This document shows, piece by piece, positions 1 through 37,232 of a stretch of 64,000 bases of DNA; the stretch's first letter is position 1; the number at the start of each line of letters is the position of its first letter. Origin of the DNA: an uncultured Chitinophagales bacterium (lineage in GTDB: Bacteria; Bacteroidota; Ignavibacteria; UBA10030; UBA6906); NCBI GenBank assembly GCA_964444145.1, contig CAYUFU010000005.1, forward strand, positions 1,667 to 65,666. Direction: 5' to 3'. The notes under the pieces were generated by a model, which worked only from the letters and a program-made list of their open reading frames with translations, searched no databases and had not been told where the DNA came from. The position numbers and the translations under genes were made by a program.

Positions 1-954
1 TGCTGCATGCGCCGGGCACGCAACATGGCAGCGTCCACACTTCGTGCACGCGTCGAGATCGAGCAGTTCCTTCCACGTAAAGTCGGTGATTGTGCGGTAG
101 CCGGGCTTCGGCGCGCCTTCCGCCGGGCGCGGCAATCGTCGCGCAGCCATTGGGTCTTTGAAGATAAGATTCGCCAAGTCCGTGAAGATGTGCATCGCTT
201 TGGAATAGGGAAGGTACGCGAGGAACACCATCACGAGAACGGCATGAACCCACCACGACGCGAGATGCAACGGCACAACGTGAGTATGCAATCCTATTCC
301 ATTCGTCGCCTCGGCAAGCATCCACCCGACGGGTGACCATCGCTCGAACTCCGGCATGTGCTCGGCAATGCGAAACCCTTCGATGAGATAGCCTGTGACG
401 CCAATGAGAAAGAGTAATGTGAGAAACATTTTGTCGTCGAGCGCGTACCCTGTGCGGTTGTACTTTCCGTTTTGGGCATCTGCGCGATGGTAATCGAGTT
501 GCGGTAAATGGAACGATGAGCGCCGCACCATCATCATCGCGAGCCCGATGAGGAACAGCACACCAAAAATATCCAGTACGACGGAGAACCAAAGGTAAAA
601 CGTCCCTTGCAGTATCTTCATGCCGAAGAAGCGGAGGATGTCGTGATCAATTGCGACGAGCACCGTTCCGATGAAGAGCACCACGAATCCCCAGAAGATG
701 AGGAAATGTGAAAGCCCCGCATACGTGTCGCGATGGAAGATGGTTCGGTTCTGCGCGATCGCCACTAGTGCACGGCGGATTCGTTCTCCGATATTGTTGA
801 GACGATTGACAGCGCGGCCGCGGCGATATTTTTTGTAGCGACGATAGAAGCCGTACAGAAACGCGAGAGAAGTAATTCCCGCAACGGCATAGAATGTCCA
901 CTGCATCCAATCGGGAAAGTGAGCGAAAATTTCGCGGGTCGGTGTATCGAACAT
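1..954 (-). CDS. Membrane-anchored Fe-S oxidoreductase, EMO/HdrD-like; 5' part only, gene runs off the window start
   Basis: Absent from the ORF track because there is no stop inside the window. My translation of the minus strand from ATG 954..952 gives MFDTPTREIFAHFPDWMQWTFYAVAGITSLAFLYGF... It has several hydrophobic helices with conserved His (b-haem membrane-domain style), then DACTKCGRCHVACP (4Fe-4S motif) at the window edge. The junction TAGGAGACATCATG with the upstream gene supplies an SD. Confidence 0.75.
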   Translation of the reverse strand, partial: MFDTPTREIFAHFPDWMQWTFYAVAGITSLAFLYGFYRRYKKYRRGRAVNRLNNIGERIRRALVAIAQNRTIFHRDTYAGLSHFLIFWGFVVLFIGTVLVAIDHDILRFFGMKILQGTFYLWFSVVLDIFGVLFLIGLAMMMVRRSSFHLPQLDYHRADAQNGKYNRTGYALDDKMFLTLLFLIGVTGYLIEGFRIAEHMPEFERWSPVGWMLAEATNGIGLHTHVVPLHLASWWVHAVLVMVFLAYLPYSKAMHIFTDLANLIFKDPMAARRLPRPAEGAPKPGYRTITDFTWKELLDLDACTKCGRCHVACPAHAA

Positions 955-962
955 GATGTCTC

Positions 963-2099
963 CTATGCTGCGATGAGTTCTTCGTTCAGCGCAAGGCGGA
1001 GCGACGAGTCGTCACCATCGCGTTCTGGCAGCAGCCCAACGCGCTCGTGGATTTCCGGCAGCAGCTTCATGCCGCTCTCGAAGTCAACGATGCGATTGAT
1101 GAGATAAAAGAGATACATCGTCGTCAGCCAGTCGGTGAACTCCTGCTTCGAGCCAAGGTGTTTTCGCATGTTGAGCATAATCCAGGAGAAATGTTCCCAT
1201 GTGTCGAAGCAGGTGGCGCAATCGCGCGTGTTGCCGGTACAGCACCGCCGTGTGGTGAAATCGGCGTTGTATGCGCGAAAGTGATGACTGAAGGGGTTTC
1301 CGTTCTTCACGCGTTCGCGGTTGATGTTGTTGTCCGGACTGATGCTCGTACACACGTCGTAACCCCACTGTTCGTTGTAGAGACGTCCCGTGGAGATGAC
1401 ATGGCTGAGATAACTCGTCATCAGAATGCGATCGGGATAGCGCGCAATCATCTTGTTGATTTCGCGCCGCGCCGCAGCAAAACCGATGTTGTTATCGAGT
1501 TCGCCGCCGAGGCTGCACAGGTCGCCGTAAAAATTGAAGAGCACGGGATTGCCATTCGCGACGCATTGCTCGACGACGGACGCGATTTCATGAGCGTTCC
1601 CGGGAGTAACCGTGTAATACCAGAACGCTCGCGGGTCGTTCCTGTAATTGTGCAGTGCCTTTTCAAAAACATCGAGTGAGCCGCTGCCGCGCAGGCGCGT
1701 ATCCGTTTCATGGCTGCCCCAAACTGCAACGCCGATGGGCAAGTTCTCGAAACCATCGTATGGAATCGTACGCAAGCCGTTCGTTGCAACGTTCATCCAA
1801 AAACTTTCATACAGCTTCTTCATACGATGCAATGCGAGACTCGGCTCGCCGCCGACGACCGTGACGAAATTCGTCCCGCGAGCTTTCTCTCGTGCGATGA
1901 AGGCATCAAACTGTGCATCGTCCTTTGGCGCATGATGCGTATCCATCGCTTCCGCAAAAAAATAGCAACCGGCGCAGCGGATGGTGCACGCGTGCGTGAT
2001 GTCCAAGGCTATGGACTTTAGCGGACCTGCATCGCGAATTTCTCGATAGAGACGATTGAGGAATGGGTCTTCGAGATATTCCTTCAAACTGCTGGGCAT
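963..2099 (-). CDS. Radical SAM protein with C-terminal Cys-rich (SPASM/twitch-like) region, function unknown
   Basis: 378-aa ORF. CxxxCxxC triad in ITHACTIRCAGCYF, a GGEP motif, and a C-terminal cluster RRCCTGNTRDCATCFDTW. Overlaps the upstream ligase gene by 16 nt and lies 8 nt from the EMO-like gene. Confidence 0.8.
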   Translation of the reverse strand: MPSSLKEYLEDPFLNRLYREIRDAGPLKSIALDITHACTIRCAGCYFFAEAMDTHHAPKDDAQFDAFIAREKARGTNFVTVVGGEPSLALHRMKKLYESFWMNVATNGLRTIPYDGFENLPIGVAVWGSHETDTRLRGSGSLDVFEKALHNYRNDPRAFWYYTVTPGNAHEIASVVEQCVANGNPVLFNFYGDLCSLGGELDNNIGFAAARREINKMIARYPDRILMTSYLSHVISTGRLYNEQWGYDVCTSISPDNNINRERVKNGNPFSHHFRAYNADFTTRRCCTGNTRDCATCFDTWEHFSWIMLNMRKHLGSKQEFTDWLTTMYLFYLINRIVDFESGMKLLPEIHERVGLLPERDGDDSSLRLALNEELIAA

Positions 2100-3106
2100 A
2101 CTTCTCTATCACCGTGCATGAGGGAGCGTGTTCGTTCTTCCCAATCGTGTACCGATACGCCCTGTAATCCTCGCTCTACAACGTCCCAATTGCGAGCGGG
2201 ACTTGATTCCAGCCTCGCCTCTTCGATGACATTGTCGAGAACGCGGAAGCTTGCACGAACAGAGTGCCTATCGAGTTGGGCTTCTGTGGCGTGAATCCAC
2301 GCGCGTGCGGAAACCTTGAGTCTGCGCATCGGGCCCGAGGATTGGCTGTCGTTATGCAAGTTCAAATACTCAGGGGACGCCATTCGCTTCGCAATTGCGA
2401 TCGAGCGCCTTTCTTCCTCGGATGAGAGTTTTCCTTCTTCAAGGGGTCGCTGGAACGCGTTGGAGAATTCTTCAGCCAAGAGGCGTCCGAGCGTGTCGAA
2501 CTCGAATTGCCCAAACTCGCGCAATGTTGCGATGCGTTCACGCATCGTCTCAAGTGCAAGTGCGCGAAAGGATTCAGAAGGGACGCGCCACACCGCCGCC
2601 ATGCTTGCATAATCAAACGCAAACAGAACGTTACCGACAACGACTGCCGCTTCATCAATCCGTCCGCCGCCAATGCCCGCAATGCGTTTGCCGCCGACTT
2701 CGATTTCGTTGAGGTCATACAATTGCGCTTCCAACCCTACTCGTCGCAACGCAGCCACCGGAGCGGCGAGCATTCGCTGATACACATCCTTCAGCATAAC
2801 GGGCGCGCGCGAGTGATGAACGATGCACTGATAAAACAACTGATTCGCATCGAGATACGTCGCGCCGCCGCCGAGGCGCCGGCGAAACACAGGCAGCCCT
2901 CGAAGCTCCAGTTCTGCGCGGTCGAACGTCGCGTCATACACTTGATGATAACCCAGGCAGACGTACGGCGTGCGCGGTCTGCAGAAGATGATCGTGTCGG
3001 GAGAATCCTCGCGCATCAACTCCGCGACTGCGTGATACACGGCTTGCGTTTGCCACGCGTCGGTCAAGCCGAGATCGAGCAGACGGATTGTTGTCGTTTT
3101 TGACAT
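2084..3106 (-). CDS. Lipoate-protein ligase A-like protein (sLpl-type), paralog 1
   Basis: 340-aa ORF with BPL/LplA catalytic-domain motifs RRLGGGATYLD and VGGKRIAGIGG (candidate catalytic Lys). Confidence 0.8.
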   Translation of the reverse strand: MSKTTTIRLLDLGLTDAWQTQAVYHAVAELMREDSPDTIIFCRPRTPYVCLGYHQVYDATFDRAELELRGLPVFRRRLGGGATYLDANQLFYQCIVHHSRAPVMLKDVYQRMLAAPVAALRRVGLEAQLYDLNEIEVGGKRIAGIGGGRIDEAAVVVGNVLFAFDYASMAAVWRVPSESFRALALETMRERIATLREFGQFEFDTLGRLLAEEFSNAFQRPLEEGKLSSEEERRSIAIAKRMASPEYLNLHNDSQSSGPMRRLKVSARAWIHATEAQLDRHSVRASFRVLDNVIEEARLESSPARNWDVVERGLQGVSVHDWEERTRSLMHGDREVCPAV

Positions 3107-3161: not shown

Positions 3162-4271
3162 TTACTCCATTACTCCATTGCCCACGACTCCATCAACCAA
3201 TCGTAACTGTTTTCTTATTACCACCAGGTCGTCATCGTTGGGAAGAACAGGATAATCGCGAAACTCCTCGCCTGGACGATATGATCCATAAGGGCGATTG
3301 CATGTCATGCTTCCTTCTCGGTCGGGGCAGCCGTTGGTCATGAACGGCACGCCGCTTTCAATGGCTCTATCAATTAGATCGTCTGCGGCAGCGAGCCGCT
3401 CGATATTTCCCTGCTCGTCGAACTCGATTGCGTCAGCAGAGAGACTTCGCTCTTCGATAAGATGTTTCGCAAGCTGAATGCGCCGCCAGCGATGCATCGG
3501 CGCGCGCGGCACATGCTGCATGGATGTTCCCGGCTCCGGATTGAACGAAAAGAGATAACAGGCAATCTGCTCAGACTTCAGCTGATAAAACATATTCACA
3601 AGCTCGCGGTCTGTTTCCCCAAGCCCGACGATGATGTGACAATTCACCTTCATCGGACCGAAGATGCGGCGCGCTGCACGAACAATGTGCCAGTGATGGT
3701 CCCAATCGTGCGGACCGCGCGCCTTCTTGCCGCGCGTGTTGGAAAAAACCTCCTCCGATGCTGCGTCCAAGCCAACGCCGACGATGTCTGCGCCGGCTTC
3801 CTGAATCTTGTACAAGCGCTCCTCGTTCAGCGTTGTCGCACTGACGAGCGCGGAGATTGGGACACTCGGCGCGGCGCGGCGAACGCGGTTCGTCATCTCA
3901 ATCAGGTCGTCATACGCTCGATGGTCTTGCACCTGCGCGATGCACACGCGTCCGACGCCGCTCGTAGCTTCCTTCTCCGCGATCTTCTCCGCGACAAGGT
4001 CGGTAGGGAAGAGGGGCCATGAGACGCGAATGAACGTGTTGTCTTCCGGAGTGCCGGGTCGCTCACGCGCGAGTCCGCAATACGTGCAGTTAGCGAAGCA
4101 GCCTTCGGGATAATTCTGCAACAAATTGATGCAGCCGCAACGGCAATCGCGCATGATGCGTCCGGGCTTCAGCCGCAGTTCAATCGCCGCCGCCATGCTG
4201 ATGCGAACATAGTCCGGGCTGATTTGATATTGCTCGGATTGGAGGTTTGAAGGAATGTGTACTTTTACCAT
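3162..4271 (-). CDS. Radical SAM enzyme, LipS1/LipS2-type lipoyl synthase component (candidate)
   Basis: The track ORF 3162..4298 starts at TTG; I prefer ATG 4271 (MVKVHIPSNL). Radical SAM triad CFANCTYCGL plus upstream CRCGC cysteines. Embedded between ligase genes, as in sLpl-LipS1-LipS2 clusters. Confidence 0.7.
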   Translation of the reverse strand: MVKVHIPSNLQSEQYQISPDYVRISMAAAIELRLKPGRIMRDCRCGCINLLQNYPEGCFANCTYCGLARERPGTPEDNTFIRVSWPLFPTDLVAEKIAEKEATSGVGRVCIAQVQDHRAYDDLIEMTNRVRRAAPSVPISALVSATTLNEERLYKIQEAGADIVGVGLDAASEEVFSNTRGKKARGPHDWDHHWHIVRAARRIFGPMKVNCHIIVGLGETDRELVNMFYQLKSEQIACYLFSFNPEPGTSMQHVPRAPMHRWRRIQLAKHLIEERSLSADAIEFDEQGNIERLAAADDLIDRAIESGVPFMTNGCPDREGSMTCNRPYGSYRPGEEFRDYPVLPNDDDLVVIRKQLRLVDGVVGNGVME

Positions 4272-4359
4272 AACGTGCTTGATACTGTAGAGCAACACTC
4301 CAGTGTCGCTCCTGTTGGCGCATATGAGCGATTCTGGAGAATCGCTCTACAAGAAATTC

Positions 4360-5355
4360 CTACCACATCACCCCGCAGCACGCGTTGACAAAGTGCGGCT
4401 CCAACGAATGCCCGCGTGCAAACTCCACGATTCCCTCCGCCGGATAGGCGATGCCATTCAACCCGGCTTCAATTGCGAGACGGTCTATCTCATACTTCAT
4501 CACGCCCAACGGACGAGCGCAGCCGAGCATGACAGGTGTTCGCGGCAGCGCTTTGCGCGTCGTTTCAAAGAATTTTCCAATTTCATCGAGCGGCGGCGGA
4601 GCGACATTCGCCATTGGCGTGTTGCTCAACGGCATGAGAATGACAAGCACGAGCAGCTTCGGCGGATGACGCTCGACCATTTCAAGCGCGCGCCATTCTC
4701 CTACCATCCGACCAAAGTGCAAGCCTAAAATGATATGGGGTACTGTGGGCACATTGTATCGGTGCAAGCATGCAAGAGCCTCTTCATAATCGTCGGGCGT
4801 TATGCCGCCGAGATGGTACACCTCTCGAATTGTTGCCTCGTGACCGATGAGGTCAATCATCGCGCCGTCAATACCGACCTCACCCAACGCAGCGCAGGTC
4901 TCTTCGTCCGGCAGGCCGGTGTGCACGCGAATCGTAAGCTGAAGCTCGCGGCGAACGCGCATCAAATCTGGAATGTGTTTCAGCAGCGGCACCCGCCCCT
5001 TGTTGTCGCAGCCGCCGGAGATGAGCACACCGCGAGCTCCCCGTTCTGCCAGCCGTTCGCACAACTGATACAAAGAAGCCCCTGCGTATGGCAGCGACGT
5101 CATGCCTTTGAGCACACTCATGTTGCAGTGTTCGCAGCTCAACGCGCAGGCTGTTCCTGTGATGCTGATGGAAACGAACTCCGCCGCATTTTGCTCGACA
5201 TACGCTGAAGTTTTGTACCTCTTCAATCCCGGCGCATGAAACGTGATGCTGTCGTCAAAATGCTCGCGGCGTATCGCCATGCATTCAGGGTCAACCATGA
5301 TGCGCGTGGATTCATCGCCAGAAGCAGGATGTGAGAGCAGCTCAAGCATACGCAC
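4360..5355 (-). CDS. Radical SAM enzyme, LipS1/LipS2-type lipoyl synthase component (candidate)
   Basis: 331-aa ORF with triad CALSCEHCN and a GGCDNKG motif. Overlaps the upstream ligase gene by 14 nt. Confidence 0.7.
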   Translation of the reverse strand: MRMLELLSHPASGDESTRIMVDPECMAIRREHFDDSITFHAPGLKRYKTSAYVEQNAAEFVSISITGTACALSCEHCNMSVLKGMTSLPYAGASLYQLCERLAERGARGVLISGGCDNKGRVPLLKHIPDLMRVRRELQLTIRVHTGLPDEETCAALGEVGIDGAMIDLIGHEATIREVYHLGGITPDDYEEALACLHRYNVPTVPHIILGLHFGRMVGEWRALEMVERHPPKLLVLVILMPLSNTPMANVAPPPLDEIGKFFETTRKALPRTPVMLGCARPLGVMKYEIDRLAIEAGLNGIAYPAEGIVEFARGHSLEPHFVNACCGVMW

Positions 5356-6460
5356 GTTCGGGATGAGGGTTCACAAAACAACCGTACGGCTGATTTCTCT
5401 CGAGACGTGCAAGGGCGTCTTTTGTCGCGCAATGAATCACTGTTAGCATTCGCTCAACCGGAATCATTCTCAGCTCGTCTTCCCATCGAGCGAACACGTT
5501 CAGCACTGTTGCAGTAAGTGCATCAGGTTCACTGGTGTGCCAGCGTAAACTTCGCTCGAGGTCGGCGATGGCGTCATCGGACGTGAAAAAATCGCCGTTG
5601 ATATGAACTGACTTTAGCATTCGTCCTGCGAGAGCGACTCTAACGTCAAGCAATCCTCCGCTGGTTTTCATGTGCGCAACGCCCGCCAAATCGCCGATTG
5701 CCGTCGTCTGAAATATCCATTCGGGCGTGAGATATTTTTCCTTTTCGAGTACCGCAATCGCAGCACGCTCATCGGAGGAAAATTCGCCGCGCGTCAGTTC
5801 GACGTTGAACGCAGCCGCGTAGCCTTCGGACACTTTGTTGCGAACATCGTTCATCGCAATGGCGCCGCCGATTTCGCACCGCACTGTTGACGTGCGCGCT
5901 GCGACGGTTCGAATTACTTTGTCTGAGATTTTTTCCAGCGGGGTTGAAAGCACGTGCAACATCAGCTCGACATCCAAATCAACGAGCAGCGAAGCATGAA
6001 ACAACAACCCGCCACTTGGCGCGCGATGGAGTCCGAGTCCTGCAATCTTCCGTCCGTTCACCTCGAGGTCGTTCTTGCGACGAAACGCCGCCTCGATGCC
6101 GAGCGCATGCAGCGCCGTGAGCAAGCCTTCGGCGAATTGCGTCATGAGCGCGCGAGCATTCCCGTACACGTTCTCCGCGCGGCTCGCAATCATCAACGCA
6201 ACGCCCAGTTGGTCCGCACCCATGATGATCGCGCCGCCGCCCGTGGGACGGCGATTGATTGGGATGTTGTGCTCGCGGCAGAAGTCAATATGAATCTCGT
6301 TCTCCGCTCGCTGAAATCGTCCAACTAACGCGCAGTGAGAGCGATAGGTGTAGAGTCGCAACGTCGGGGGCGACTCGCCCGAGCCAGCGCGGCGCGCGAG
6401 CGTCTCGTCGGCGGCGAGACCGAAGGAGGCGGAGACGTTGTTGTCAGTTATGAGGCGCAT
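5342..6460 (-). CDS. Lipoate-protein ligase A-like protein (sLpl-type), paralog 2
   Basis: 372-aa ORF with motifs RRPTGGGAIIMG and VNGRKIAGLG (LplA-type catalytic Lys context). Confidence 0.8.
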   Translation of the reverse strand: MRLITDNNVSASFGLAADETLARRAGSGESPPTLRLYTYRSHCALVGRFQRAENEIHIDFCREHNIPINRRPTGGGAIIMGADQLGVALMIASRAENVYGNARALMTQFAEGLLTALHALGIEAAFRRKNDLEVNGRKIAGLGLHRAPSGGLLFHASLLVDLDVELMLHVLSTPLEKISDKVIRTVAARTSTVRCEIGGAIAMNDVRNKVSEGYAAAFNVELTRGEFSSDERAAIAVLEKEKYLTPEWIFQTTAIGDLAGVAHMKTSGGLLDVRVALAGRMLKSVHINGDFFTSDDAIADLERSLRWHTSEPDALTATVLNVFARWEDELRMIPVERMLTVIHCATKDALARLERNQPYGCFVNPHPERAYA

Positions 6461-7183: not shown

Positions 7184-7627
7184 TTAAACCCATCCTTGCA
7201 ACCGATACCGCTGAATTTCACTTTCGACCCAACGTGGAATCGCGCTCCCAGAAACCAACGCCGCAGATTCTTGCTTCCAATCTGTCGCGTCGAACGATGC
7301 AATCCAACCGTCGTTGTAGGGATCACGGTTGACGAGTGTTGGATCGTGCACAACGTTCACATTGCATCCGATGAGAATTCCGCTTACAGGTGCGATGATG
7401 TCTCCGGTCATCTTCGCCGCTTCGAATGTACCAAATGCTTCACCGCGCCCGACGGGCGTTCCGACTTCTTTGAGCGTTACATACACAAGGTCGCCAAGCG
7501 CCTGCAAGCCAAGTACATCAATGCCAACAATGATTCGACCTGTCGCATCATCTGCCCGCGCCCACATGTGGTTGACGGAGTCATAATAGCGATCGTGGGG
7601 AATGTAAATTGCGGTTGAAGAGGACAT
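7184..7627 (-). CDS. lbpA: GcvH-like lipoate-binding protein LbpA (copy 1)
   Basis: 147-aa ORF with lipoyl-lysine context FEAAKMTGDIIAPVSG (compare GcvH VESVKAASDIYAPVSG). Confidence 0.85.
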   Translation of the reverse strand: MSSSTAIYIPHDRYYDSVNHMWARADDATGRIIVGIDVLGLQALGDLVYVTLKEVGTPVGRGEAFGTFEAAKMTGDIIAPVSGILIGCNVNVVHDPTLVNRDPYNDGWIASFDATDWKQESAALVSGSAIPRWVESEIQRYRLQGWV

Positions 7628-7701: not shown

Positions 7702-8670
7702 TCATGCCTTTGCCTTCTCAATAAGCAGCGGCACGATGTCGAACAAATCTCCTGCAACGCCATAGTGCGCGTAATCGAAAATCGGAGCGTTTACATCGGA
7801 GTTGATTGCAACAATCGTCTCGGCGTCTTTCATGCCTTCGATATGTTCAGGCGCGCCACTGATGCCGAGTGCGAGATAGAACCTCGGTTTCACTTTCACC
7901 CCGGACTTTCCGACTTGCCGCGTCTTCGGCAGCCACTTGCTGTCCACGATAGGACGTGAACAGGAGAGCGCGCCGCCGAGCGCGTCGGCAAGTTCTTGCA
8001 TCTGCGGAATGTTGTCGGCGCTCTGAATGCCGCGCCCGACACTAACGAGGATTTCTTTTGTGGTAATGTCCACACCGCCGCCTTCCGGCTCGATGAGTTT
8101 CTTGAAGCGAACCTTCGGCGTGTTCAACGCGGCGGGCGGCACGAAGTCTTCGACCGTCGGCGAGCCGCTCGCGCGTCCTTTGTCCGACGGCGAGGCACCA
8201 GCCAACATGCAGACGATTACGCCGTCGGCGGTGAACTGCGATTCAACGTTGAGCTTGCCGCCGTACAACTGGCTCGTCGCTACCACCGAGCCATCTTCCA
8301 CTTTCGCGTCGAGCGCGTATGCGACCAACGGCAGATTCGCTTTCACCGAAAGCGATGCCGCAAGGTCCATGCCCATGGAAGAATTGGCAATGAGCGTAAC
8401 GGCAGGTGCGTGTGCCTTGACGACTTCCGTCAAAGCAATGGTGTACGTTTCGGGATTGAAGTTGTCCAAACTTCCATGCTCGACGGCGATGATCTTGTCG
8501 GCGCACCCCATCTCTGCAGTAAGATTCTTCACACCGTTGCCGAGCAGTACACCAACGAGTTTGCCGCTTTTCGCATTTGCAAGCTCGCGACCTTTGCCAA
8601 GCAGTTCGAACGTTACATCGGCAAGCTTCCCTTTCAGGTGCTCGGCGACCACGAATACATCATTGCTCAT
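7702..8670 (-). CDS. etfA: Electron transfer flavoprotein alpha subunit
   Basis: 322-aa ORF with C-terminal FAD-domain motif YLALGISGAPEHIEGM. Overlaps etfB by 4 nt. Confidence 0.9.
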   Translation of the reverse strand: MSNDVFVVAEHLKGKLADVTFELLGKGRELANAKSGKLVGVLLGNGVKNLTAEMGCADKIIAVEHGSLDNFNPETYTIALTEVVKAHAPAVTLIANSSMGMDLAASLSVKANLPLVAYALDAKVEDGSVVATSQLYGGKLNVESQFTADGVIVCMLAGASPSDKGRASGSPTVEDFVPPAALNTPKVRFKKLIEPEGGGVDITTKEILVSVGRGIQSADNIPQMQELADALGGALSCSRPIVDSKWLPKTRQVGKSGVKVKPRFYLALGISGAPEHIEGMKDAETIVAINSDVNAPIFDYAHYGVAGDLFDIVPLLIEKAKA

Positions 8671-9434
8671 CGTTTCACTCCCTTTGCCTTCATCAAGTCC
8701 ATAATTCTTGCTGCAATATCCTCAGCACTGCCATCAATCATTTGTGCCTGCGTTCCTTTCTCGGGTTTCATAATGCGGCGTACGCGCGAGCCAACTTCAA
8801 CCGCAATGGCGCCTGCCTCCGCATCATCCAACGTTGCTTCCTTCTGTATCTGACGAACGCGGCTCACAGCTACATAACGTGGAGTCTCTCGTGCAGCTTG
8901 AATGCCCAACACCGCTGGTAAATCCACCTCCAGTTCAGCCATCATACCGCCCTGGTATTCCTTGTGCACAATCGCTTTGCGCCCGTCCACATGCACGCCC
9001 GTCACGACGCTGATATGCGGCACGTCAAGATAGCTGGCCAACAGAACTCCCATCTGACCGTCGCGATCATCTACCGCTTGCACACCAGTGAGAATCAAAT
9101 CGTGCGGCAAGTTCTTCGCGACATTTGCAATCGCCTTCGCAGCGACATGCGACGCAACTCCGCCCGAAAGATCGCCCATCACTTTCACTCCTTTGTCCGC
9201 GCCTTTCGCTATTGCCGTGAAAAGAAGTTTGTCGGTTTCATCGCCATCGAGCGCGAGGACCGTCACCGTTCCGCCTAACGCGGCTTTCAATTGCAGCGCT
9301 TCTTCCAACGCGTGATCGTCGAACTCATTGATTTTGTATTTCACCGAGTCGCGATTGATGTCGGTTCCCTCTTCGTTGATCTCTAATTCTTCAACGAGGT
9401 CAGGAACTTGTTTGATGGGCACGAGGATGTTCAT
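8667..9434 (-). CDS. etfB: Electron transfer flavoprotein beta subunit
   Basis: 255-aa ORF starting MNILVPIKQVPD, with the typical EtfB layout. Translationally coupled to etfA. Confidence 0.9.
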   Translation of the reverse strand: MNILVPIKQVPDLVEELEINEEGTDINRDSVKYKINEFDDHALEEALQLKAALGGTVTVLALDGDETDKLLFTAIAKGADKGVKVMGDLSGGVASHVAAKAIANVAKNLPHDLILTGVQAVDDRDGQMGVLLASYLDVPHISVVTGVHVDGRKAIVHKEYQGGMMAELEVDLPAVLGIQAARETPRYVAVSRVRQIQKEATLDDAEAGAIAVEVGSRVRRIMKPEKGTQAQMIDGSAEDIAARIMDLMKAKGVKR

Positions 9435-9497: not shown

Positions 9498-9516
9498 AGT
9501 GAGGCAATGCCTCACT
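9498..9516. other. Hairpin spanning the stop codon of the HdrD-like gene
   Basis: AGTGAGGC-AAT-GCCTCACT (8-bp stem). No U-tract. Confidence 0.35.
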
Positions 9517-10798
9517 GTTTAGCCATTGCTTCATCCAACAACTCTACAATGTCGCGCACAAGGAGTCTTCCTTCGTTGCCTGTGGACTTCACAGCGTCCT
9601 CGAAGCGCGAAACTTCGTATGGGCAACAAATCGCCAGCACTTCGGCACCTGTTTCCGTTGCCTCGCGAACGCGTCGCTCGGACAGGCGCTCGCTGACATG
9701 GTCTGCCATGAAACCATCCAACCACATGCCGCCTCCACCGCCGCCGCAGCAGTAGCCGTTCTCCTTGCAGCGCCACATCTCGATAAACTCGATGCCGGGT
9801 ATGGCGTGCAAGAGTTTGCGCGGCGATTCATACTCGCCGTTGTGTCGTCCTAAGTAACACGGGTCGTGGAAGGTGACCTTGTGCTTCAGTTCGTTTTTCA
9901 GCATCGGCTGAAGCTGATTCAGGCGCGACGCGAGGAACGTCGTGTAATGCTCGACCTCAAACTGGCCGCCTAACTTCGGATATTCTTTTCGGAATGCGTT
10001 GAGCGCGTGCGGGTCGGTAACAACAATCTTTTTGAATTTGTATTTCTTCAGCATCTTGATGTTGTGCGCCGCTAGCTCTTCAAACAAGCCCGGCTCGCCG
10101 GCGAGTCGCTGCGAGTCGCCGTCGCATTTTTCTTCGATGCCGAGAATGCCGAAATCAACGCCCAGCGCGGTGAAAACCCGCGCAAGCGCCTTCGATGCAT
10201 CAATGCCTCGCTTATGATAGCTCGGATAGTCGCTCACGAACCACAGCACATCCACAGGCTTCTTAGTTTGCGCCATGATCGGCACCGGAACGCCGGCGGT
10301 TTTCGTCCAATCGGCGCGCTTCTTCGGCGACTCGCCGAGCGGGTTGCCATACTCCGCACAGTTCTGAAACATCTGCTGCAGCTCTTTCGGTACTAAGCCC
10401 CTCAACACCGCTTGCTCGCGCACGGCGGGCATGACTTTGACCAAGTTCACTTCCTTTGGACAAACACGCAGACAGTTCATGCACGTCGTGCATTTCCAAA
10501 GCTCCGGGCTTTCAAACAAATCCATGCCCGTTTGCACTTGACGGAAAAGCTTACGCGGTCCGTAACTGCCGACGATATCCACTGGACACACAGGCACGCA
10601 TTGCGCGCATTGATAGCACCATCCAAACGACTCGGCATTGTCGAGCGCAGTGATTTTTTCCATCAGCTCCGGAGTATAATCCCACAAGACTCGTTGCTCG
10701 AACATCCGGTTCCAGTGGCCCGAAATATCCAAGCCCTCTTGAACGACATGCTCCTTTTCAATGATGCGCTCTTTGTCAACTGTAAGCAGTGAACCCAT
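9512..10798 (-). CDS. HdrD-like fused ferredoxin + 2xCCG protein (sHdrB3-type)
   Basis: The track ORF extends to 10945, but that part lies inside the sHdrH-like gene. I use ATG 10798 (MGSLLTVDKE), which overlaps the upstream stop as TGATG. Motifs: CYQCAQCVPVCP, CTTCMNCLRVCP, KCDGD, HDPCYLGRH, YCCGGGGG, CCPYE. Confidence 0.8.
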   Translation of the reverse strand: MGSLLTVDKERIIEKEHVVQEGLDISGHWNRMFEQRVLWDYTPELMEKITALDNAESFGWCYQCAQCVPVCPVDIVGSYGPRKLFRQVQTGMDLFESPELWKCTTCMNCLRVCPKEVNLVKVMPAVREQAVLRGLVPKELQQMFQNCAEYGNPLGESPKKRADWTKTAGVPVPIMAQTKKPVDVLWFVSDYPSYHKRGIDASKALARVFTALGVDFGILGIEEKCDGDSQRLAGEPGLFEELAAHNIKMLKKYKFKKIVVTDPHALNAFRKEYPKLGGQFEVEHYTTFLASRLNQLQPMLKNELKHKVTFHDPCYLGRHNGEYESPRKLLHAIPGIEFIEMWRCKENGYCCGGGGGGMWLDGFMADHVSERLSERRVREATETGAEVLAICCPYEVSRFEDAVKSTGNEGRLLVRDIVELLDEAMAKQ

Positions 10799-11577
10799 CA
10801 GGGACACTCCGTCATTATTCCGTTTTCGATTCGATACACACCCAACAGTCTCCGCGAGAACTCCGGTAGACCCGGCATGACCTTGTTGAATTCCTGCGTC
10901 ATCCGCATGCGTAAGACCGTGTACACGTACACGACATAGACACAACTCAAGAACACATCGGTCCCGAACAGGTTCTTGCTGATGGTCTGGAATCCCGTAG
11001 CCTCACCTACCTGGTGAACAAACGCGACCGCCTCACCGACACGCAAATAAATGTCTCCGGCGGTTTTGCCGCTGAGGTCGAATGCCTCAACAGTTACCAA
11101 TGGCAGCGCTCCTGTTCGTGTTTTCGGGTCCCACATCCAGCGTGTCCAGAGCCAATAGCGTTCGGGGTCAGTGAAGTGAAGTATCTCGCTGGCGATGTCG
11201 CGACGGATGTTGTCTTCGAGAGGTTCGAGCTTATCCACAAATGTTTGGAACCGCGATTTTGTCGGGTCGCTACCGTAGAGCAGTTCCCACGTCCACGCGC
11301 GCAAGTCATCCGGTCGAAATTGCTTCATGATTGCGTCCGTCTTTCGCCGCGCAGAAAAAATTCGCCGCAGCAACGAAAAGTAATCCGCCGATGCAAGAGA
11401 GGGGAGCGCCTCACGACTGAGTTTTTTTTGAAACCATAGCGCCTTCAATTCCACTTCTGCGCAGATTTTTTGCAGCTCCTCTGCTGCAACTTTCTCCAGC
11501 GCCTGGCGCATGAATTCTTTTGCGGTTTCCGTGTCAACGACTTGGCTCACCCTGAAACCCGATTTGATTTCACGCAA
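10798..11577 (-). CDS. shdrH: Conserved hypothetical in the sHdrH position
   Basis: 259-aa ORF (TTG start in the track; the start is uncertain). No recognisable motif; assigned only by its position between the HdrA-like gene and the next Hdr subunit. Confidence 0.55.
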   Translation of the reverse strand: MREIKSGFRVSQVVDTETAKEFMRQALEKVAAEELQKICAEVELKALWFQKKLSREALPSLASADYFSLLRRIFSARRKTDAIMKQFRPDDLRAWTWELLYGSDPTKSRFQTFVDKLEPLEDNIRRDIASEILHFTDPERYWLWTRWMWDPKTRTGALPLVTVEAFDLSGKTAGDIYLRVGEAVAFVHQVGEATGFQTISKNLFGTDVFLSCVYVVYVYTVLRMRMTQEFNKVMPGLPEFSRRLLGVYRIENGIMTECP

Positions 11578-11761
11578 AGTCGCAAAGCCGCTAAGTTTGT
11601 TTTGAGAAAGTTGAGGAAAGAAGATTTACCTTGTCGGTGGAAGCGCATGAACAGTTCGGGAATCCTCTTCCTCATGTTTTGTTTCTTTTTCGTTGCGTCT
11701 TGCCTGCCCGCCTCACTGTGCTATGATGGCAGGCGGGGCGCCTTTGCGTGAGAATCTCGCG

Positions 11762-12838
11762 CTATGCCGCCGCGTGAACGCCATGCTTGCGCACGATGGC
11801 AATCGCCTTCATCGCCGCCGCCGCCGCGGATGAAACCGAATCTTCGAGGTCGGCGGGACCTGTAGCAGCGCCGCATGCAAACACGCCGGGCACACTCGTC
11901 GTCACGGTATCGAGTGCGCCGCCGACGGCTTCGATGAACTGGTATTTGTTAAGCTGCAACCCGAAAACGCTCGCCATCGCGCGCGTCCCCGCACTCGGCT
12001 CCATCCCAACCGAGAGCACAACGATATCCATTGGCACTTCCATCGGTCGTCCCATCGTCGTGTCTTCGCCGCGGATCAATAAGCGGTCGCCTTTCTTCAA
12101 TACTTCGGTAACAATGCCTTTAACGTAATTGACCTTGTGCTTCTCTTGCGCGGGCCAGTAGATTTGATTTTCCCAGTAACCGTACATGCGCATGTCAATG
12201 TAGAAGATGAAGACCTTGCAGTTAGGGAGGAGCTGGCGAACTTCGATTGCCTCTTTGGAGGCGACGCCGCAGCAGACCTTCGAGCAATACTCGTTGCCGA
12301 TTTGTCTGTCGCGCGAACCGACGCACTGAATGAAGCACAAGCGCTCCGGCGGTTTGCCGTTCGATGGACGCACGACGTTGTGTGCGCGCAGCATTTTCTC
12401 TAAGTCCACCAGTGTGATGACGTCGTCGAACTCATAATAGCCGTATTGCTGCGTTTCACGTCCCGGATCGAAATGTTGGAATCCCGTTGCGATGATGACA
12501 GCGCCCGCTTTCACTTTTTCCTGTCCCATGCCGTTCTTAACGGTGATCTCGAAATTGCCGACGGAGCCGCTTGCCGCTGTCACGGTGGAATTCAGTCGAA
12601 TGCCAACCAGTGGATTGTTGTCAACGCGCGCAACCATTTCGGCAATCGCGCTGTCTGCGCTGCGGAAATCTGGCGTGAGCGCGGCGTAACCCGCTTCGTC
12701 CGGCGTGCCGCCGAGGCGCGCGCGTTTTTCGATGAGTATCGCCGTATAGCCAAGCTCAGCGACGCTGCGCGCTGCTTCCAAGCCCGCAGGTCCGCCGCCA
12801 ATAATCATGATAGGCAAGACTGATTCAGGCATTAACAT
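11762..12838 (-). CDS. shdrA: sHdrA-like FAD/Fe-S flavoprotein
   Basis: 358-aa ORF with IIGGGPAGLEAA dinucleotide fold and Cys cluster CVGSRD...CSKVCC. Overlaps the HdrB-like gene by 14 nt. Confidence 0.85.
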   Translation of the reverse strand: MLMPESVLPIMIIGGGPAGLEAARSVAELGYTAILIEKRARLGGTPDEAGYAALTPDFRSADSAIAEMVARVDNNPLVGIRLNSTVTAASGSVGNFEITVKNGMGQEKVKAGAVIIATGFQHFDPGRETQQYGYYEFDDVITLVDLEKMLRAHNVVRPSNGKPPERLCFIQCVGSRDRQIGNEYCSKVCCGVASKEAIEVRQLLPNCKVFIFYIDMRMYGYWENQIYWPAQEKHKVNYVKGIVTEVLKKGDRLLIRGEDTTMGRPMEVPMDIVVLSVGMEPSAGTRAMASVFGLQLNKYQFIEAVGGALDTVTTSVPGVFACGAATGPADLEDSVSSAAAAAMKAIAIVRKHGVHAAA

Positions 12839-14018
12839 CCTCCCACGTCAGGTATTGTTTTTCACCGCTCTTCAACCGTTCGGTCGCTGCTTCAAATTCC
12901 TTCCAAGCTTTCTCGTGATCGATTCCGACTTTCTCCAAGAACGCCGTGTTGTCCGTACTGTGCCAGTGGAGTTGCAGCACTTTGTAGGGATGTGCGCCCA
13001 TGGCAAGCGCCGCAATCTGCGAATCGGACATGACGGGAACACCGACATTGCGTCCGTGCGCCTTCGCGGCAAACTGACTTTGGTCGAGCGTTGTCACGCA
13101 ACCCGTGTCGTGCGTGACCGTGACATCGGGATTGGCTTCTTGTTTCATCACTTCGATTTTCCGCATCGTTGCAAACGAGCGGGAGAAATCGCGCGACACA
13201 AGAATGTGGCGGAACCCGAAGCCGCAGCAATCGAACCATGTGGAATAATCCTTCACGTCAATACCCAGGGCTTTCAGTGTTCCGGTAATAATTGCAGACC
13301 GCTGCGCGCCGTAAATTTCCGGATCATACACTGCATCTTCTGCAATGAGCTTATGATAGTGACATGCAGGATGGACCGTTGCGCGTATCATGCTCATGTC
13401 GCGCACCTGATGCGCTGCAATCCTGTCGCGCACGGCGTGCACCCATTCGCTGTAGTGAACAATCTCTTCAGGTATGACGAATTTCTTTCCAAGCCGCGCC
13501 AGAATGTCGCGCACTTGCTTGCGCAGCGCGGCGCTGTGCAAGAGCTGCTGCCGCGTTTCTTTGTAATGTCCGAAGCTCGTGCCGCAATGAATGATGGGGA
13601 AGTATCCCGTTTCAGCCGCCGCCGCAAAGTTGCGCATGGCAACCGCCGCTTGTGCCGCCGCATTCGAGGTTGCTGAGGCATAGTAATTCCACGCCGTGCA
13701 CGACGTCTGGTCGGTCGGGTCAATGTAATCGAGCCCAAGTTGGCGGTTTATCCAAAAGATAGAAGTCGAGTAGCCGGGGATGTGCCCGCACTGACCGCAG
13801 CTCTTGTGATGCCAGGTTTTCTGCACCGGAATCTTTTTCTTCCGCCCGTACTTTGTCTCGACTTCGATGTACGGCTCGGGCACGCGCTGAACCTCCCACT
13901 CACCCTCTTTTTCTAACTCGAAGAGGTGCTCATGAAAATCGTCGGTGGGTGCGTTCTTGACATCGCGAACAAACTCTCGGTCCTTCGCCTGCTTCACTAA
14001 CGCTTCCTGTGGTATCAT
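12825..14018 (-). CDS. shdrB1: sHdrB1-like CCG-domain subunit
   Basis: 397-aa ORF with CCG motif in FDCCGFGFRH and a further Cys-rich region. Confidence 0.8.
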   Translation of the reverse strand: MIPQEALVKQAKDREFVRDVKNAPTDDFHEHLFELEKEGEWEVQRVPEPYIEVETKYGRKKKIPVQKTWHHKSCGQCGHIPGYSTSIFWINRQLGLDYIDPTDQTSCTAWNYYASATSNAAAQAAVAMRNFAAAAETGYFPIIHCGTSFGHYKETRQQLLHSAALRKQVRDILARLGKKFVIPEEIVHYSEWVHAVRDRIAAHQVRDMSMIRATVHPACHYHKLIAEDAVYDPEIYGAQRSAIITGTLKALGIDVKDYSTWFDCCGFGFRHILVSRDFSRSFATMRKIEVMKQEANPDVTVTHDTGCVTTLDQSQFAAKAHGRNVGVPVMSDSQIAALAMGAHPYKVLQLHWHSTDNTAFLEKVGIDHEKAWKEFEAATERLKSGEKQYLTWEDVNA

Positions 14019-14072
14019 GTGGTTTGCTCCTGACTAGTTCTTTCCCAACCTTCTGTGTGCAGAGAGTTCTCC

Positions 14073-37200: not shown

Positions 37201-37232
37201 CATTTCACGTACGTTTTGTTCTGGGAAGGTCT

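What the first reader, a model, noticed from the sequence alone, without database searches (positions are those of the whole stretch)
963..2099. Third, unassigned radical SAM/Cys-rich enzyme wedged between the lipoate-assembly genes and the EMO-like gene
**Seen:** besides the two LipS-type radical SAM ORFs (3162..4271 and 4360..5355) there is a third radical SAM ORF.
- It has the triad CTIRCAGC and a C-terminal cysteine cluster CCTGNTRDCATC.
- It overlaps the ligase gene by 16 nt and ends 8 nt before the EMO-like start, so it is almost certainly co-expressed.

**Established:** the described sLpl-LipS1-LipS2 route needs only two radical SAM proteins (plus a reductase).

**Inference:** this may be an additional maturation or cofactor-modifying enzyme for LbpA, sHdr or EMO, of unknown chemistry.
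Basis: partly seen in the sequence, partly recalled or inferred. Interest (0 to 1): 0.7.

Follow-up and report, generated by a model that had tools for sequence, protein, structure and literature searches.

The report
Unnamed radical SAM enzyme in sulfur-oxidation clusters
A real, highly conserved but uncharacterised radical SAM enzyme gene travels with bacterial sHdr/lipoate-protein sulfur-oxidation gene clusters, so it is a good candidate for an unknown helper step, though what it acts on is still unknown.

Summary
A 378-aa ORF lies at 963..2099 on the minus strand. It has CTIRCAGC (C38/C42/C45), a GGEP motif and CCTGNTRDCATC (286-297). It overlaps the upstream ligase paralogue by 16 nt and ends 8 nt before the EMO gene.

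It is a genuine radical SAM enzyme. No curated family claims it in Pfam or NCBIfam, it has no SPASM hit, and it has no close solved structure. Conserved Cys250/286/(287)/294/297 suggest one auxiliary Fe-S site.

The family is large and very conserved (55-86 % identity across phyla). In Bacteroidota, Acidobacteriota, KSB1 and Calditrichota, 12 of 13 species loci with both flanks visible sit inside type II shdr-lbpA-lip-etf-emo clusters, in four different gene orders. All 7 complete clusters of the Bacteroidota type found with an independent sHdrB3 probe carry it, at either end.

It is accessory, not core. The closest cluster relative (L067), Chloroflexota clusters and divergent type II clusters lack it. 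Gammaproteobacterial copies are mostly stand-alone; one lies beside a type I cluster.

The function is unknown. My best guess is a dedicated tailoring or maturation enzyme of the sHdr-LbpA system. The sHdr papers I read do not describe it. Moderately interesting.

The parts
963..2099 (-). Gene for the uncharacterised radical SAM enzyme ('rSAM3', 378 aa)
   Evidence: ORF and translation. 879 homologues. AF2 model with pLDDT 84 and pTM 0.86.
1965..1988 (-). Radical SAM cluster motif CTIRCAGC (C38, C42, C45)
   Evidence: All three Cys are invariant in 39 and 44 aligned sequences.
1842..1853 (-). GGEP motif (residues 83-86), the usual SAM-binding 'GGE' element; TNG follows at residues 106-108
   Evidence: Invariant G83/G84/E85/P86 and N107/G108.
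1209..1352 (-). Candidate auxiliary Fe-S site: C250 ... C286 C287 X6 C294 X2 C297
   Evidence: C250, C286, C294 and C297 are invariant and C287 is >=90 % conserved. There is no SPASM Pfam hit in any of 44 members. AF2 confidence is low here (pLDDT 51-73).
2084..3106 (-). Second LplA-type ligase paralogue ('Lig2', 340 aa), overlapping the rSAM3 start by 16 nt
   Evidence: PF21948 LplA-B_cat at 101.6 bits. 642 homologues, named lipoate-protein ligase by the sources.
1..954 (-). 5' part of the EMO-like gene (QmoC/HdrE-like membrane domain plus Fe-S/CCG part; full length 694 aa), starting 8 nt after the rSAM3 stop
3162..4298 (-). LipS2-type lipoyl synthase
   Evidence: NCBIfam NF053743 at 208.9 bits.
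4360..5355 (-). LipS1-type lipoyl synthase
   Evidence: NCBIfam NF053742 at 229.2 bits.
5342..6460 (-). sLpl(AB)-type lipoate:protein ligase
   Evidence: PF21948, PF03099 and the LplB-like C-terminus.
7184..7627 (-). LbpA (GcvH-like lipoate-binding protein), copy next to the lipoate module
   Evidence: PF01597 at 93.6 bits.
7702..9434 (-). etfA (7702-8670) and etfB (8667-9434)
   Evidence: PF00766 and PF01012.
9512..14777 (-). Type II sHdr core: sHdrB3 (9512-10801/10945), sHdrH (10798-11577), sHdrA (11762-12838), sHdrB1 (12825-14018), sHdrC1 (14073-14777)
   Evidence: Pfam CCG, Fer4 and Pyr_redox_2 hits. The gene order matches shdrC1B1AHB3-etfAB-emo as defined in PMC11094781.
14928..17394 (-). 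Second LbpA (14928-15398) and the sulfur-transferase block: DsrE (15501-15878), small conserved ORF c13 (15978-16331), DsrE (16262-16780), TusA (16868-17110), TusA (17107-17394)
   Evidence: PF01597 at 126 bits. Names were assigned by clustering with loci genes.

Best explanation
The ORF encodes a functional radical SAM enzyme of an uncharacterised, strongly conserved family.

**Anatomy**
- The N-terminal CX3CX2C cluster, GGEP and TNG elements form the SAM-cleaving core.
- A family-specific C-terminal domain carries four to five conserved cysteines (C250, C286/C287, C294, C297). It probably binds one auxiliary Fe-S cluster.

**Role**
- It is an accessory, co-transcribed component of sHdr-LbpA dissimilatory sulfur-oxidation gene clusters. 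These are mainly type II clusters of Bacteroidota, Acidobacteriota, KSB1 and Calditrichota.

**Inferred mechanism**
- The reduced [4Fe-4S] cluster cleaves SAM to a 5'-deoxyadenosyl radical.
- The radical abstracts a hydrogen atom from a substrate belonging to the sHdr-LbpA system.
- The auxiliary cluster serves as electron sink or sulfur handler.

**Favoured target (low certainty)**
- A carrier-tethered acyl arm: the octanoyl/lipoyl-lysine of LbpA or its precursor. That would be a tailoring step beyond LipS1/LipS2.

**What is shown and what is inferred**
- Shown: the gene, the motifs, family conservation and cluster linkage.
- Inferred: activity, the auxiliary cluster and the target.
For: **Radical SAM core**
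- CX3CX2C, GGEP and TNG are invariant.
- All 44 aligned members hit PF04055 at E<=1 (best 3.2e-9).
- The AF2 model (pLDDT 84) matches radical SAM structures at Foldseek probability 1.0.

**Linkage to shdr clusters**
- 28 of 55 species-representative loci have shdr/lbpA/lip/etf/emo genes within 10 kb.
- In the Bacteroidota/Acidobacteriota/KSB1/Calditrichota group, 12 of 13 loci with >=8 kb visible on both sides are linked.
- There are four gene orders with short gaps: LipS2-Lig2-R-EMO, LipS2-R-EtfB, EMO-R, and R-ArsR-TusA-DsrE....
- An independent sHdrB3 probe of metagenomes found 7 of 7 complete Bacteroidota-type clusters with the gene, at the 5' end (5 clusters) or the 3' end (2 clusters) of an otherwise identical cluster.
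- A relative of the window's contig (L145, Lig2 81 % identical) keeps Lig2-R-EMO.
- One gammaproteobacterial copy lies beside a type I cluster that has no etf/emo (L032).
- Woeseiales are reported as type I sHdr carriers (PMC12345210; P0441).

**Acyl-arm idea**
- A 57 %-identical homologue is fused to a TubC docking domain and a thioesterase, directly after a PKS module.
- A 32 % relative sits among ACP, KS and FabA genes.
- In the window and three other lineages the gene abuts LipS2 or Lig2.
Against: - No experiment supports any of this, and no curated family gives a name.
- The gene is dispensable for many sHdr systems. It is absent in L067, the cluster closest to the window's.
- It is absent from Chloroflexota LbpA-sLpl-LipS1-LipS2-Lig2 modules.
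- It is absent from five divergent type II clusters and from a Woeseiaceae type I cluster fragment.
- The sHdr papers I read do not describe it.
- Published reconstitution of LbpA lipoylation needs only sLpl, LipS1 and LipS2 (plus LipT) (PMC10332631).
- 15 of 16 gammaproteobacterial copies and the one Anaerolineae copy checked are stand-alone, with heterogeneous neighbours.
- The gene is 59 % identical between the window and L032, while sHdr subunits and LbpA are only 39-49 % identical. That does not look like co-evolution with a protein substrate.
- In more than 25 loci it lies at a cluster end, far from the lipoate genes.
Confidence: 0.45

Rival explanations
1. It serves the electron-output branch of type II systems: EMO and its menaquinone or haem b cofactors. 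For example, it might tailor the quinone or mature EMO, rather than acting on LbpA.
For: - The tightest and most frequent coupling is with emo. EMO->R gaps are -4 to 97 nt in 7 Saprospirales-type loci, and 199 nt in an eighth. R->EMO gaps are 8 nt (window), -4 nt (L001) and 8 nt (L145).
- L067 has the L001/window gene order minus the R-EMO pair.
- In two Saprospiraceae species the unlinked copy sits 6-9 nt after an MqnA/MqnD menaquinone-biosynthesis gene.
- The gene was seen only with the window-type EMO (52-66 % identity), never with divergent EMO' clusters.
Against: - In about 15 clusters it sits at the opposite end from emo (type iv).
- L032 links it to a type I cluster that has no etf/emo.
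- The Chloroflexota cluster L147 has a 688-aa EMO but no rSAM in view.
- By my own knowledge, Gammaproteobacterial hosts usually use ubiquinone.
- There is no resemblance to known quinone-modifying radical SAM enzymes (no MqnC/MqnE or HemN-like hits).
- The EMO-type correlation is confounded by phylogeny.
Confidence: 0.2
2. It is a general-purpose enzyme for small-molecule or cofactor metabolism, not specific to sHdr. It has merely been recruited into, or hitch-hikes with, sulfur-oxidation islands in some phyla.
For: - 27 of 55 species loci show no shdr gene within 10 kb.
- Stand-alone neighbours are unrelated to each other: GMC oxidoreductase, amidohydrolase, MFS, peptidase, GT2 and others.
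- The tree follows taxonomy.
- Conservation is very high across phyla.
- Distant relatives sit in diverse contexts.
Against: - The gene is retained in the cluster through at least four rearrangements.
- Linkage is near-universal where both flanks are visible in four phyla (12/13), and holds for 7 of 7 independently probed clusters.
- Many 'unlinked' Bacteroidota loci simply have a truncated flank.
- Gammaproteobacterial lineages with stand-alone copies are reported sHdr carriers.
Confidence: 0.2
3. It post-translationally modifies a protein of the system (an sHdr subunit, TusA/DsrE, Etf or EMO) or a small peptide, in the manner of SPASM/twitch peptide maturases.
For: The nearest sequence and structure neighbours are peptide- or protein-modifying radical SAM enzymes: SkfB (profile E 4.6e-8), CteB, SuiB, anSME and weak PapB hits.
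Against: - These matches cover only the generic core (TM <=0.48) and lie far below NCBIfam cutoffs.
- There is no RRE-like N-terminal domain; only about 27 residues precede the first strand.
- No conserved short ORF lies next to the gene in 55 loci.
- There is no SPASM motif.
- Its conservation exceeds that of the candidate protein substrates.
Confidence: 0.1

Closest known systems
SPASM/twitch-type radical SAM enzymes (SkfB 6efn, CteB 5wgg, anSME 4k36-4k39, SuiB 5v1t, GDGT-MAS/Tes 7tol)
   Same: - CX3CX2C, GGEP and TNG core.
- Partial TIM-barrel fold.
- Extra conserved cysteines C-terminal to the barrel that could bind an auxiliary cluster.
- Best sequence and fold hits.
   Different: - No SPASM 7-Cys motif and no PF13186 hit in 44 members. 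The Cys pattern is C-X35-CC-X6-C-X2-C.
- TM-scores are only 0.40-0.48.
- NCBIfam scores are 15-25 bits against cutoffs of 180-855.
- No RRE domain and no precursor-peptide gene.
LipS1/LipS2 lipoyl synthases (neighbouring genes; PMC10332631)
   Same: Both are radical SAM enzymes encoded in the same operon-like cluster, next to lipoate:protein ligases and LbpA.
   Different: - No detectable specific similarity. rSAM3 does not hit NF053742/NF053743, whereas its neighbours score 229 and 209 bits.
- LipS-type enzymes belong to the BioB/LipA-like group, while rSAM3 groups with SPASM/twitch/viperin-like cores.
- The published pathway works without it.
Uncharacterised relatives in acyl-carrier contexts (P0121 TubC_N-thioesterase-rSAM fusion after a PKS module; P0135 in an ACP/KS/FabA/KR cluster)
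   Same: - Same family (P0121, 57 % identity over the full length) or same wider family (P0135, 32 %).
- Same Cys pattern (RRCC...C..C).
   Different: - Their context is polyketide or fatty-acyl assembly, not sulfur oxidation.
- None is characterised, so they give a theme (carrier-tethered acyl chains), not a function.
Pathway-dedicated radical SAM maturases in general (for example the NCBIfam 'tungsten cofactor oxidoreductase radical SAM maturase', TIGR04317)
   Same: - The concept is the same: a radical SAM gene kept inside the gene cluster of the redox enzyme system it presumably serves.
- There is a weak N-terminal hit for relative P0122 (22.5 bits).
   Different: The score is far below the cutoff (380). 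No homology exists beyond the core, and the mechanism of that family is itself unknown (own knowledge).

Membership tests
Radical SAM superfamily | CX3CX2C motif providing three Cys ligands for the SAM-binding [4Fe-4S] cluster | tested here: met
   CTIRCAGC at residues 38-45. C38, C42 and C45 are invariant in 39 and 44 sequences.
Radical SAM superfamily | SAM-binding elements (GGE motif, ribose motif) and a partial (beta/alpha)6 TIM-barrel fold | tested here: met
   GGEP 83-86 and TNG 106-108 are invariant. The AF2 model alternates strands and helices through residue ~237. Foldseek probability is 1.0 to many radical SAM structures.
Radical SAM superfamily | Profile match to PF04055 at Pfam's gathering score | tested here: inconclusive
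   The window protein scores 21.1 bits against a cutoff of 29.5. All 44 family members match at E<=1 (best 3.2e-9). Relatives P0122 and P0121 score 43.5 and 35.5 bits.
Radical SAM superfamily | Reductive cleavage of SAM to a 5'-deoxyadenosyl radical | not testable with these tools
   This needs the reconstituted protein and a SAM cleavage assay.
SPASM-domain radical SAM enzymes | C-terminal 7-Cys motif CX9-15GX4C...CX2CX5CX3C...C (PF13186), binding two auxiliary clusters | tested here: not met
   The pattern is C250-X35-C286C287-X6-C294-X2-C297. No PF13186 hit was found in any of 44 members, even at E<=1.
Twitch-domain radical SAM enzymes | Shortened SPASM-like C-terminal beta-hairpin plus helix, binding one auxiliary Fe-S cluster | tested here: inconclusive
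   Four invariant and one nearly invariant Cys lie after the barrel. AF2 shows short strands at 240-250 and a helix at 258-265, but pLDDT is only 51-73 there.
LipS1 / LipS2 lipoyl synthases | Match to NCBIfam NF053742 / NF053743 | tested here: not met
   rSAM3 gives no hit, while the neighbouring ORFs score 229.2 and 208.9 bits. BLASTP of rSAM3 against a Woeseiaceae LipS1 finds nothing (E 2.9).
RiPP / peptide maturases (SkfB, PapB, CteB type) | Family-level model score, an RRE recognition domain, and an adjacent precursor-peptide gene | tested here: not met
   NCBIfam scores are 15-25 bits against cutoffs of 300-855. Only ~27 residues precede strand 1. No conserved small ORF flanks the gene in 55 loci.
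MoaA (GTP 3',8-cyclase) | Match to the MoaA equivalog models, including the C-terminal CX2CX13C cluster | tested here: not met
   The window protein gives no MoaA hit at E<=0.01. Relatives show only N-terminal hits of 22-38 bits against cutoffs of 231-325. The PDB MoaA profile E-value is 0.11-0.13.
Quinone-pathway radical SAM enzymes (MqnC/MqnE; HemN-like class C methylases MenK/MqnK) | Match to MqnC/MqnE models or to a HemN-type C-terminal domain | tested here: not met
   No such Pfam or NCBIfam hit was found for rSAM3. By contrast, LipS2 gives a weak MqnC hit.

The most novel reading that the evidence does not exclude
[quoted passage not shown] The leading candidate is the lipoyl/octanoyl arm of LbpA, or another cofactor of the complex. 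If so, the sHdr-LbpA pathway of sediment Bacteroidota, Acidobacteriota, KSB1, Calditrichota and some Gammaproteobacteria would run on a chemically tailored cofactor made by new radical SAM chemistry.
Probability: 0.25. Interest if true: 0.8.

Novelty: new variant of a known kind. Interest (0 to 1): 0.55.

Why it matters
**The open question.** The sHdr-LbpA pathway is a widespread route of cytoplasmic sulfane-sulfur oxidation, and its chemistry is unresolved. It is not known what the lipoate on LbpA does, or how electrons leave via Etf/EMO.

**What this gene offers.** It is conserved and cluster-resident. It is absent from the model organisms studied so far and not described in the sHdr papers I read. 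That gives a concrete new handle.
- If it tailors LbpA's cofactor or the electron-output branch, it would reveal a missing step and possibly new radical chemistry.
- If it is a general enzyme, its strong conservation across five or more phyla still marks an unassigned family worth naming.

**How it could be tested.** The comparative data define natural plus and minus variants of otherwise identical clusters (window/L001/L145 versus L067). They also define expression constructs that would test the idea directly.

Tried and rejected
**Family and fold searches that gave no name**
- Known families: Pfam and NCBIfam scans of the protein, of 44 members at E<=1, and of ten distant relatives gave only the generic radical SAM core. 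I rejected LipS1/2, LipA, BioB, MoaA, anSME, SPASM maturases, MqnC/E and HemN-like methylases.
- Structures: PDB sequence, PDB profile and Foldseek searches found only core similarity, TM <=0.48.

**Roles tested and rejected or left open**
- RiPP maturase: no conserved flanking small ORF. The clusters found were antisense shadows of EMO, TusA and ArsR genes.
- Obligate partner of the second ligase Lig2: rejected, because Chloroflexota modules carry Lig2 without the rSAM.
- Membrane enzyme: rejected. Maximum Kyte-Doolittle (19-residue window) is 1.13.
- LipT substitute: the cluster types compared show no LipT-sized FAD gene in either the plus or the minus variants, so there is no mutual-exclusion signal.

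**Checks that were uninformative**
- A promoter/terminator scan around the gene gave counts at or below shuffles.
- Stand-alone neighbourhoods showed no common theme.
- Contexts of P0122 and P0139 were too short to read.

**Genome-level co-occurrence could not be done**
- The supplement of PMC11094781 is not held.
- A contig-length 'fingerprint' match between type I sHdrB1 hits and stand-alone rSAM contigs found no identical lengths among the top 120.

Full report
**1. Observation**

The ORF at 963..2099 on the minus strand is real. It encodes 378 aa from an ATG. Its features are:
- CTIRCAGC at residues 38-45 (window 1965-1988).
- GGEP at residues 83-86.
- CCTGNTRDCATC at residues 286-297 (window 1209-1244).

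The N-terminus aligns with the N-termini of homologues, so the start is correct. The upstream LplA-like gene (2084..3106) overlaps it by 16 nt. The next gene starts at 954 after an 8-nt gap and runs off the window. That gene has a QmoC/HdrE-like membrane domain followed by Fe-S motifs. On other contigs carrying the identical rSAM protein it is 694 aa, with Fer4 and CCG domains, and is followed by a small zf-Di19-like ORF.

A consensus scan finds no promoter or terminator between these genes, and the counts are at or below shuffles. Co-transcription therefore rests on the overlap and spacing.

**2. The surrounding cluster**

On the minus strand the window holds, in order:
- TusA, TusA, DsrE, c13, DsrE, LbpA
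- sHdrC1, B1, A, H, B3
- EtfB, EtfA, LbpA
- a 200-aa ORF
- sLpl, LipS1, LipS2, Lig2, rSAM3, EMO

This is the type II arrangement shdrC1B1AHB3-etfAB-emo described in PMC11094781. It also carries the sLpl-LipS1-LipS2 lipoate assembly genes of PMC10332631. LipS1 scores 229.2 bits (cutoff 230) and LipS2 scores 208.9 bits (cutoff 270).

**3. The protein itself**

Family assignment:
- Pfam sees only the N-terminal part of the radical SAM core: 21.1 bits, below the 29.5 cutoff, residues 34-97.
- NCBIfam gives only weak N-terminal hits to PapB, viperin, SkfB, Tes and others: 15-25 bits against cutoffs of 180-855.
- All 44 aligned members hit PF04055 and Fer4_12. None hits SPASM or any C-terminal domain model, even at E<=1.

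Conservation:
- Invariant or nearly invariant residues include C38/C42/C45, GGEP and TNG.
- Beyond the barrel, C250, C286, C294 and C297 are invariant, and C287 and C179 are at least 90 % conserved.
- The pattern C-X35-CC-X6-C-X2-C is not a SPASM motif. It could still bind one auxiliary cluster.

Structure:
- An AlphaFold2 model (pLDDT 84, pTM 0.86) shows the alternating strand-helix core.
- After that come short strands at 240-250, a helix at 258-265, a low-confidence Cys-rich loop, and four C-terminal helices.
- Foldseek against the PDB returns SuiB, anSME, GDGT-MAS, viperin, TYW1 and EpeE, with TM no higher than 0.48. That is core similarity only.
- A profile search of PDB sequences gives SkfB (4.6e-8) and CteB (6e-6).
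- There is no transmembrane segment.

So it is a bona fide radical SAM enzyme of the SPASM/twitch/viperin-like clade, with a C-terminal domain that no library models.

**4. Family size and spread**

- A word-indexed search finds 879 homologues. The top 120 are 62-86 % identical and carry only generic names. Named sources include Calditrichota, Anaerolineae, Acidobacteria and Phaeodactylibacter.
- An exhaustive search of 1.84 billion cluster representatives gives 393 hits at E<=1e-3.
- The core family collapses into very few 50 % clusters. More distant full-length relatives lie at 25-37 % identity.

**5. Context in species-representative genomes**

A scan returned 55 loci. By tblastn with the window's cluster proteins, 28 have shdr/lbpA/lip/etf/emo genes within 10 kb. 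There are four gene orders:
- (i) ...LipS2-Lig2-R-EMO: the window and Acidobacteria L001. KSB1 loci L004 and L055 have ...Lig2-R.
- (ii) LipS2-R-EtfB-EtfA-EMO: Calditrichaceae L002 and L005. Acidobacteria L049 has LipS2-R.
- (iii) ...EtfB-EtfA-EMO-R: Saprospiraceae and Lewinellaceae, 8 loci plus 3 looser ones.
- (iv) R-ArsR-TusA-DsrE-Lig2-c13-DsrE-LbpA-shdrC1...: Cyclobacteriaceae, Flammeovirgaceae and Flavobacteriaceae, about 10 loci.

Gaps to the neighbouring cluster gene are often -4 to 50 nt.

Counts by lineage:

| Lineage group | Linked, >=8 kb visible on both sides | Linked, all loci |
|---|---|---|
| Bacteroidota, Acidobacteriota, KSB1, Calditrichota | 12 of 13 | 27 of 39 |
| Gammaproteobacteria | 1 of 7 | 1 of 16 |

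Most of the unlinked loci in the first group have a truncated flank.

The linked gammaproteobacterial locus, L032, is a type I cluster. It has separate sHdrC2 (265 aa) and sHdrB2 (311 aa) and no etf/emo. The rSAM lies about 1.9 kb beyond LbpA, past an oppositely oriented class-V aminotransferase gene.

A neighbour-joining tree follows taxonomy. Linked and unlinked Saprospiraceae copies interleave, which indicates one orthologous group.

Neighbours of stand-alone copies show no common theme. They include a GMC oxidoreductase, amidohydrolase, esterase, MFS transporter, S9 peptidase, GT2 and a SIR2-like protein. In two Saprospiraceae an MqnA/MqnD gene lies 6-9 nt upstream. In Lysobacterales an OYE-type flavoenzyme and a PDO-rhodanese fusion are nearby. 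An Anaerolineae copy is also stand-alone.

**6. Reverse test**

I probed metagenome contigs with sHdrB3, a type II marker that sits mid-cluster. This gave 80 loci chosen without regard to the rSAM. Gene-order tables show the following.
- Every Bacteroidota-type cluster with both ends visible carries the gene. It is at the 5' end in L086, L096, L106, L111 and L113, and at the 3' end after EMO in L091 and L098. The intervening 20 genes are in the same order.
- Partially visible clusters of this type are all compatible with the gene lying at the unseen end.
- Type (ii) recurs in L071 and L072.
- Five divergent type II clusters lack it: L110, L118, L124, L126 and L127. Where emo is comparable, its product is only 27-45 % identical to the window's, and four of the five have no adjacent lipoate module.
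- L067, whose sHdrB3 is 90 % identical to the window's, reads ...LipS2-Lig2-(Rieske-like ORF)-(zf ORF). That is the L001/window order without the R-EMO pair.
- L145 (Lig2 81 % identical) keeps Lig2-R-EMO.
- Chloroflexota loci L146 and L147 have LbpA-sLpl-LipS1-LipS2-Lig2 without the rSAM. L147 does so inside a type II cluster with a 688-aa EMO.

The gene is therefore a lineage-restricted accessory that stays with the cluster while moving within it. It is not a core component and not an obligate partner of Lig2.

**7. Hints from relatives**

- P0121 (57 % identical over the whole enzyme) is fused to a TubC docking domain and a thioesterase. It overlaps the end of a PKS module by 4 nt and is followed by an LCM-type methyltransferase.
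- P0135 (32 %) lies in a type-II FAS/PKS-like cluster. That cluster has two ACPs, a KS, a FabA/ApeI dehydratase, KR, ApeP, LolA and two other radical SAM genes.
- P0159 adjoins an AMP-binding enzyme, probably through a frameshift fusion.
- P0144 sits between a nitroreductase, a GNAT and a TP_methylase.
- Other contexts were too short to read.

Two or three of these point to carrier-tethered acyl chains as substrates in the wider family. That is a theme, not a proof.

**8. Literature**

The three sHdr/LbpA papers I read mention only two radical SAM proteins, RadSAM1/2 = LipS1/S2: eLife 2018 PMC6067878, PLoS Biol 2023 PMC10332631 and Protein Sci 2024 PMC11094781. None mentions an extra one.

PMC12345210 reports type I sHdr in 296 gammaproteobacterial sediment MAGs, including Woeseiales. 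A search with the L032 sHdrB1 confirms Woeseiaceae and many Alpha- and Gammaproteobacteria among carriers. The one Woeseiaceae cluster fragment I could view has LipS1, LipS2, a ligase, a GATase, DsrE and shdr, but no rSAM3 within its 9 kb. Stand-alone gammaproteobacterial copies may therefore sit in sHdr-positive genomes. I could not test that.

**9. Interpretation**

Shown:
- A real gene for a radical SAM enzyme of an unnamed, highly conserved family.
- Statistically overwhelming and rearrangement-resistant linkage to sHdr-LbpA clusters in four phyla.
- Accessory status.

Inferred:
- It cleaves SAM and abstracts hydrogen from a substrate of this system.
- It binds one auxiliary cluster.

Candidate targets:
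- I favour the acyl or lipoyl arm on LbpA, or its precursor. The reasons are the acyl-carrier theme among relatives, the adjacency to LipS2/Lig2 in four lineages, and the link to a type I cluster lacking EMO. The certainty is low.
- The main rival is the EMO/quinone branch. It is supported by the tightest coupling, the joint absence of R and EMO in L067, and the MqnD adjacency.
- A general enzyme recruited into sulfur islands remains possible.
- A peptide-maturase role is disfavoured, since there is no precursor ORF, no RRE and no SPASM.

One point argues for a chemically invariant substrate rather than a co-evolving protein. The enzyme is more conserved between the window and L032 (59 %) than the sHdr subunits (45-49 %) or LbpA (39 %).

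**10. Verdict**

The gene fits no known family at family level, yet it is clearly a radical SAM enzyme, so I rate it a new variant of a known kind.

Interest is moderate (0.55). It is a solid, testable lead into an unresolved pathway, but it carries no mechanism yet and is not universal among sHdr systems.

Noticed in passing
window 2084-3106 (-); L146, L147, L145, L067: A second LplA-type ligase paralogue ('Lig2', catalytic domain plus an unmodelled ~120-aa C-terminus) follows LipS2. The five-gene module LbpA-sLpl-LipS1-LipS2-Lig2 recurs in Acidobacteria, KSB1 and Chloroflexota, in L146 even without shdr genes within the 10 kb examined. In Bacteroidota the paralogue instead sits among the TusA/DsrE genes, before the second LbpA. 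The papers I read describe only one ligase.
   Followed up: partly
window 6539-7141 (-): A 200-aa ORF lies between LbpA and sLpl with no Pfam hit. It is conserved at the same position in close relatives (L145, L148-L150). Its sequence (HYHVL..., YIHWNPVKHG) reminds me of HUH/Y1 (REP-associated) transposase-like proteins; this is my own recollection and was not tested.
   Followed up: no
window 35438-40127 (+); L004, L019, L041, L042, L052, L055, L110, L118, L147: A molybdopterin oxidoreductase pair (a fused 4Fe-4S/NrfD-like subunit of ~550 aa plus a ~960-aa catalytic subunit) recurs next to shdr clusters, often divergent from the rSAM gene. The sequence looks Soe/Psr-like. It may be the sulfite- or polysulfide-handling partner of the pathway.
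   Followed up: partly
window 3162-6460 (-), and clusters: No LipT-like FAD oxidoreductase gene is present in the lipoate module of this window or of the Bacteroidota-type clusters. LipS1 (229.2 vs cutoff 230) and LipS2 (208.9 vs cutoff 270) score just under NCBIfam's curated cutoffs.
   Followed up: partly
L058 9191-11365 (P0121); L059/L060 8001-8999 (P0135): One member of the family is fused to a TubC docking domain and a thioesterase, directly after a PKS module. A distant relative sits in an ACP/KS/FabA/KR/LolA cluster with two further radical SAM genes, one of them B12-binding. Both are uncharacterised biosynthetic clusters.
   Followed up: partly
L067 20032-21228; L001 13916-14221; L055 11362-11871; beyond the window's left edge (L148 13370-13609): Several further small accessory genes recur at the 3' end of these clusters. 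They are a ~224-aa protein with a Rieske-like C-terminus (17 loci), a zf-Di19-like ~80-115-aa protein, and a ~170-aa winged-helix protein. All are of unknown role.
   Followed up: partly
L032 8168-9946 (-); L001; L073, L075, L080, L086, L136: A long (~590 aa) class-V aminotransferase (cysteine-desulfurase-like) gene is another recurrent accessory of shdr clusters. It often lies between sHdrB3 and EtfB, and in L032 it is directly next to the rSAM gene.
   Followed up: no
window 15978-16331 (-): A small conserved ORF (c13, 83-117 aa, no Pfam hit) lies between the two DsrE genes. It is present in 22 loci at the same position.
   Followed up: no
window 9512-10945 (-): The mechanical ORF for sHdrB3 (477 aa, TTG start) overlaps sHdrH. 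Gene calls on identical contigs give 428 aa, so the true start is probably near 10798-10801.
   Followed up: partly
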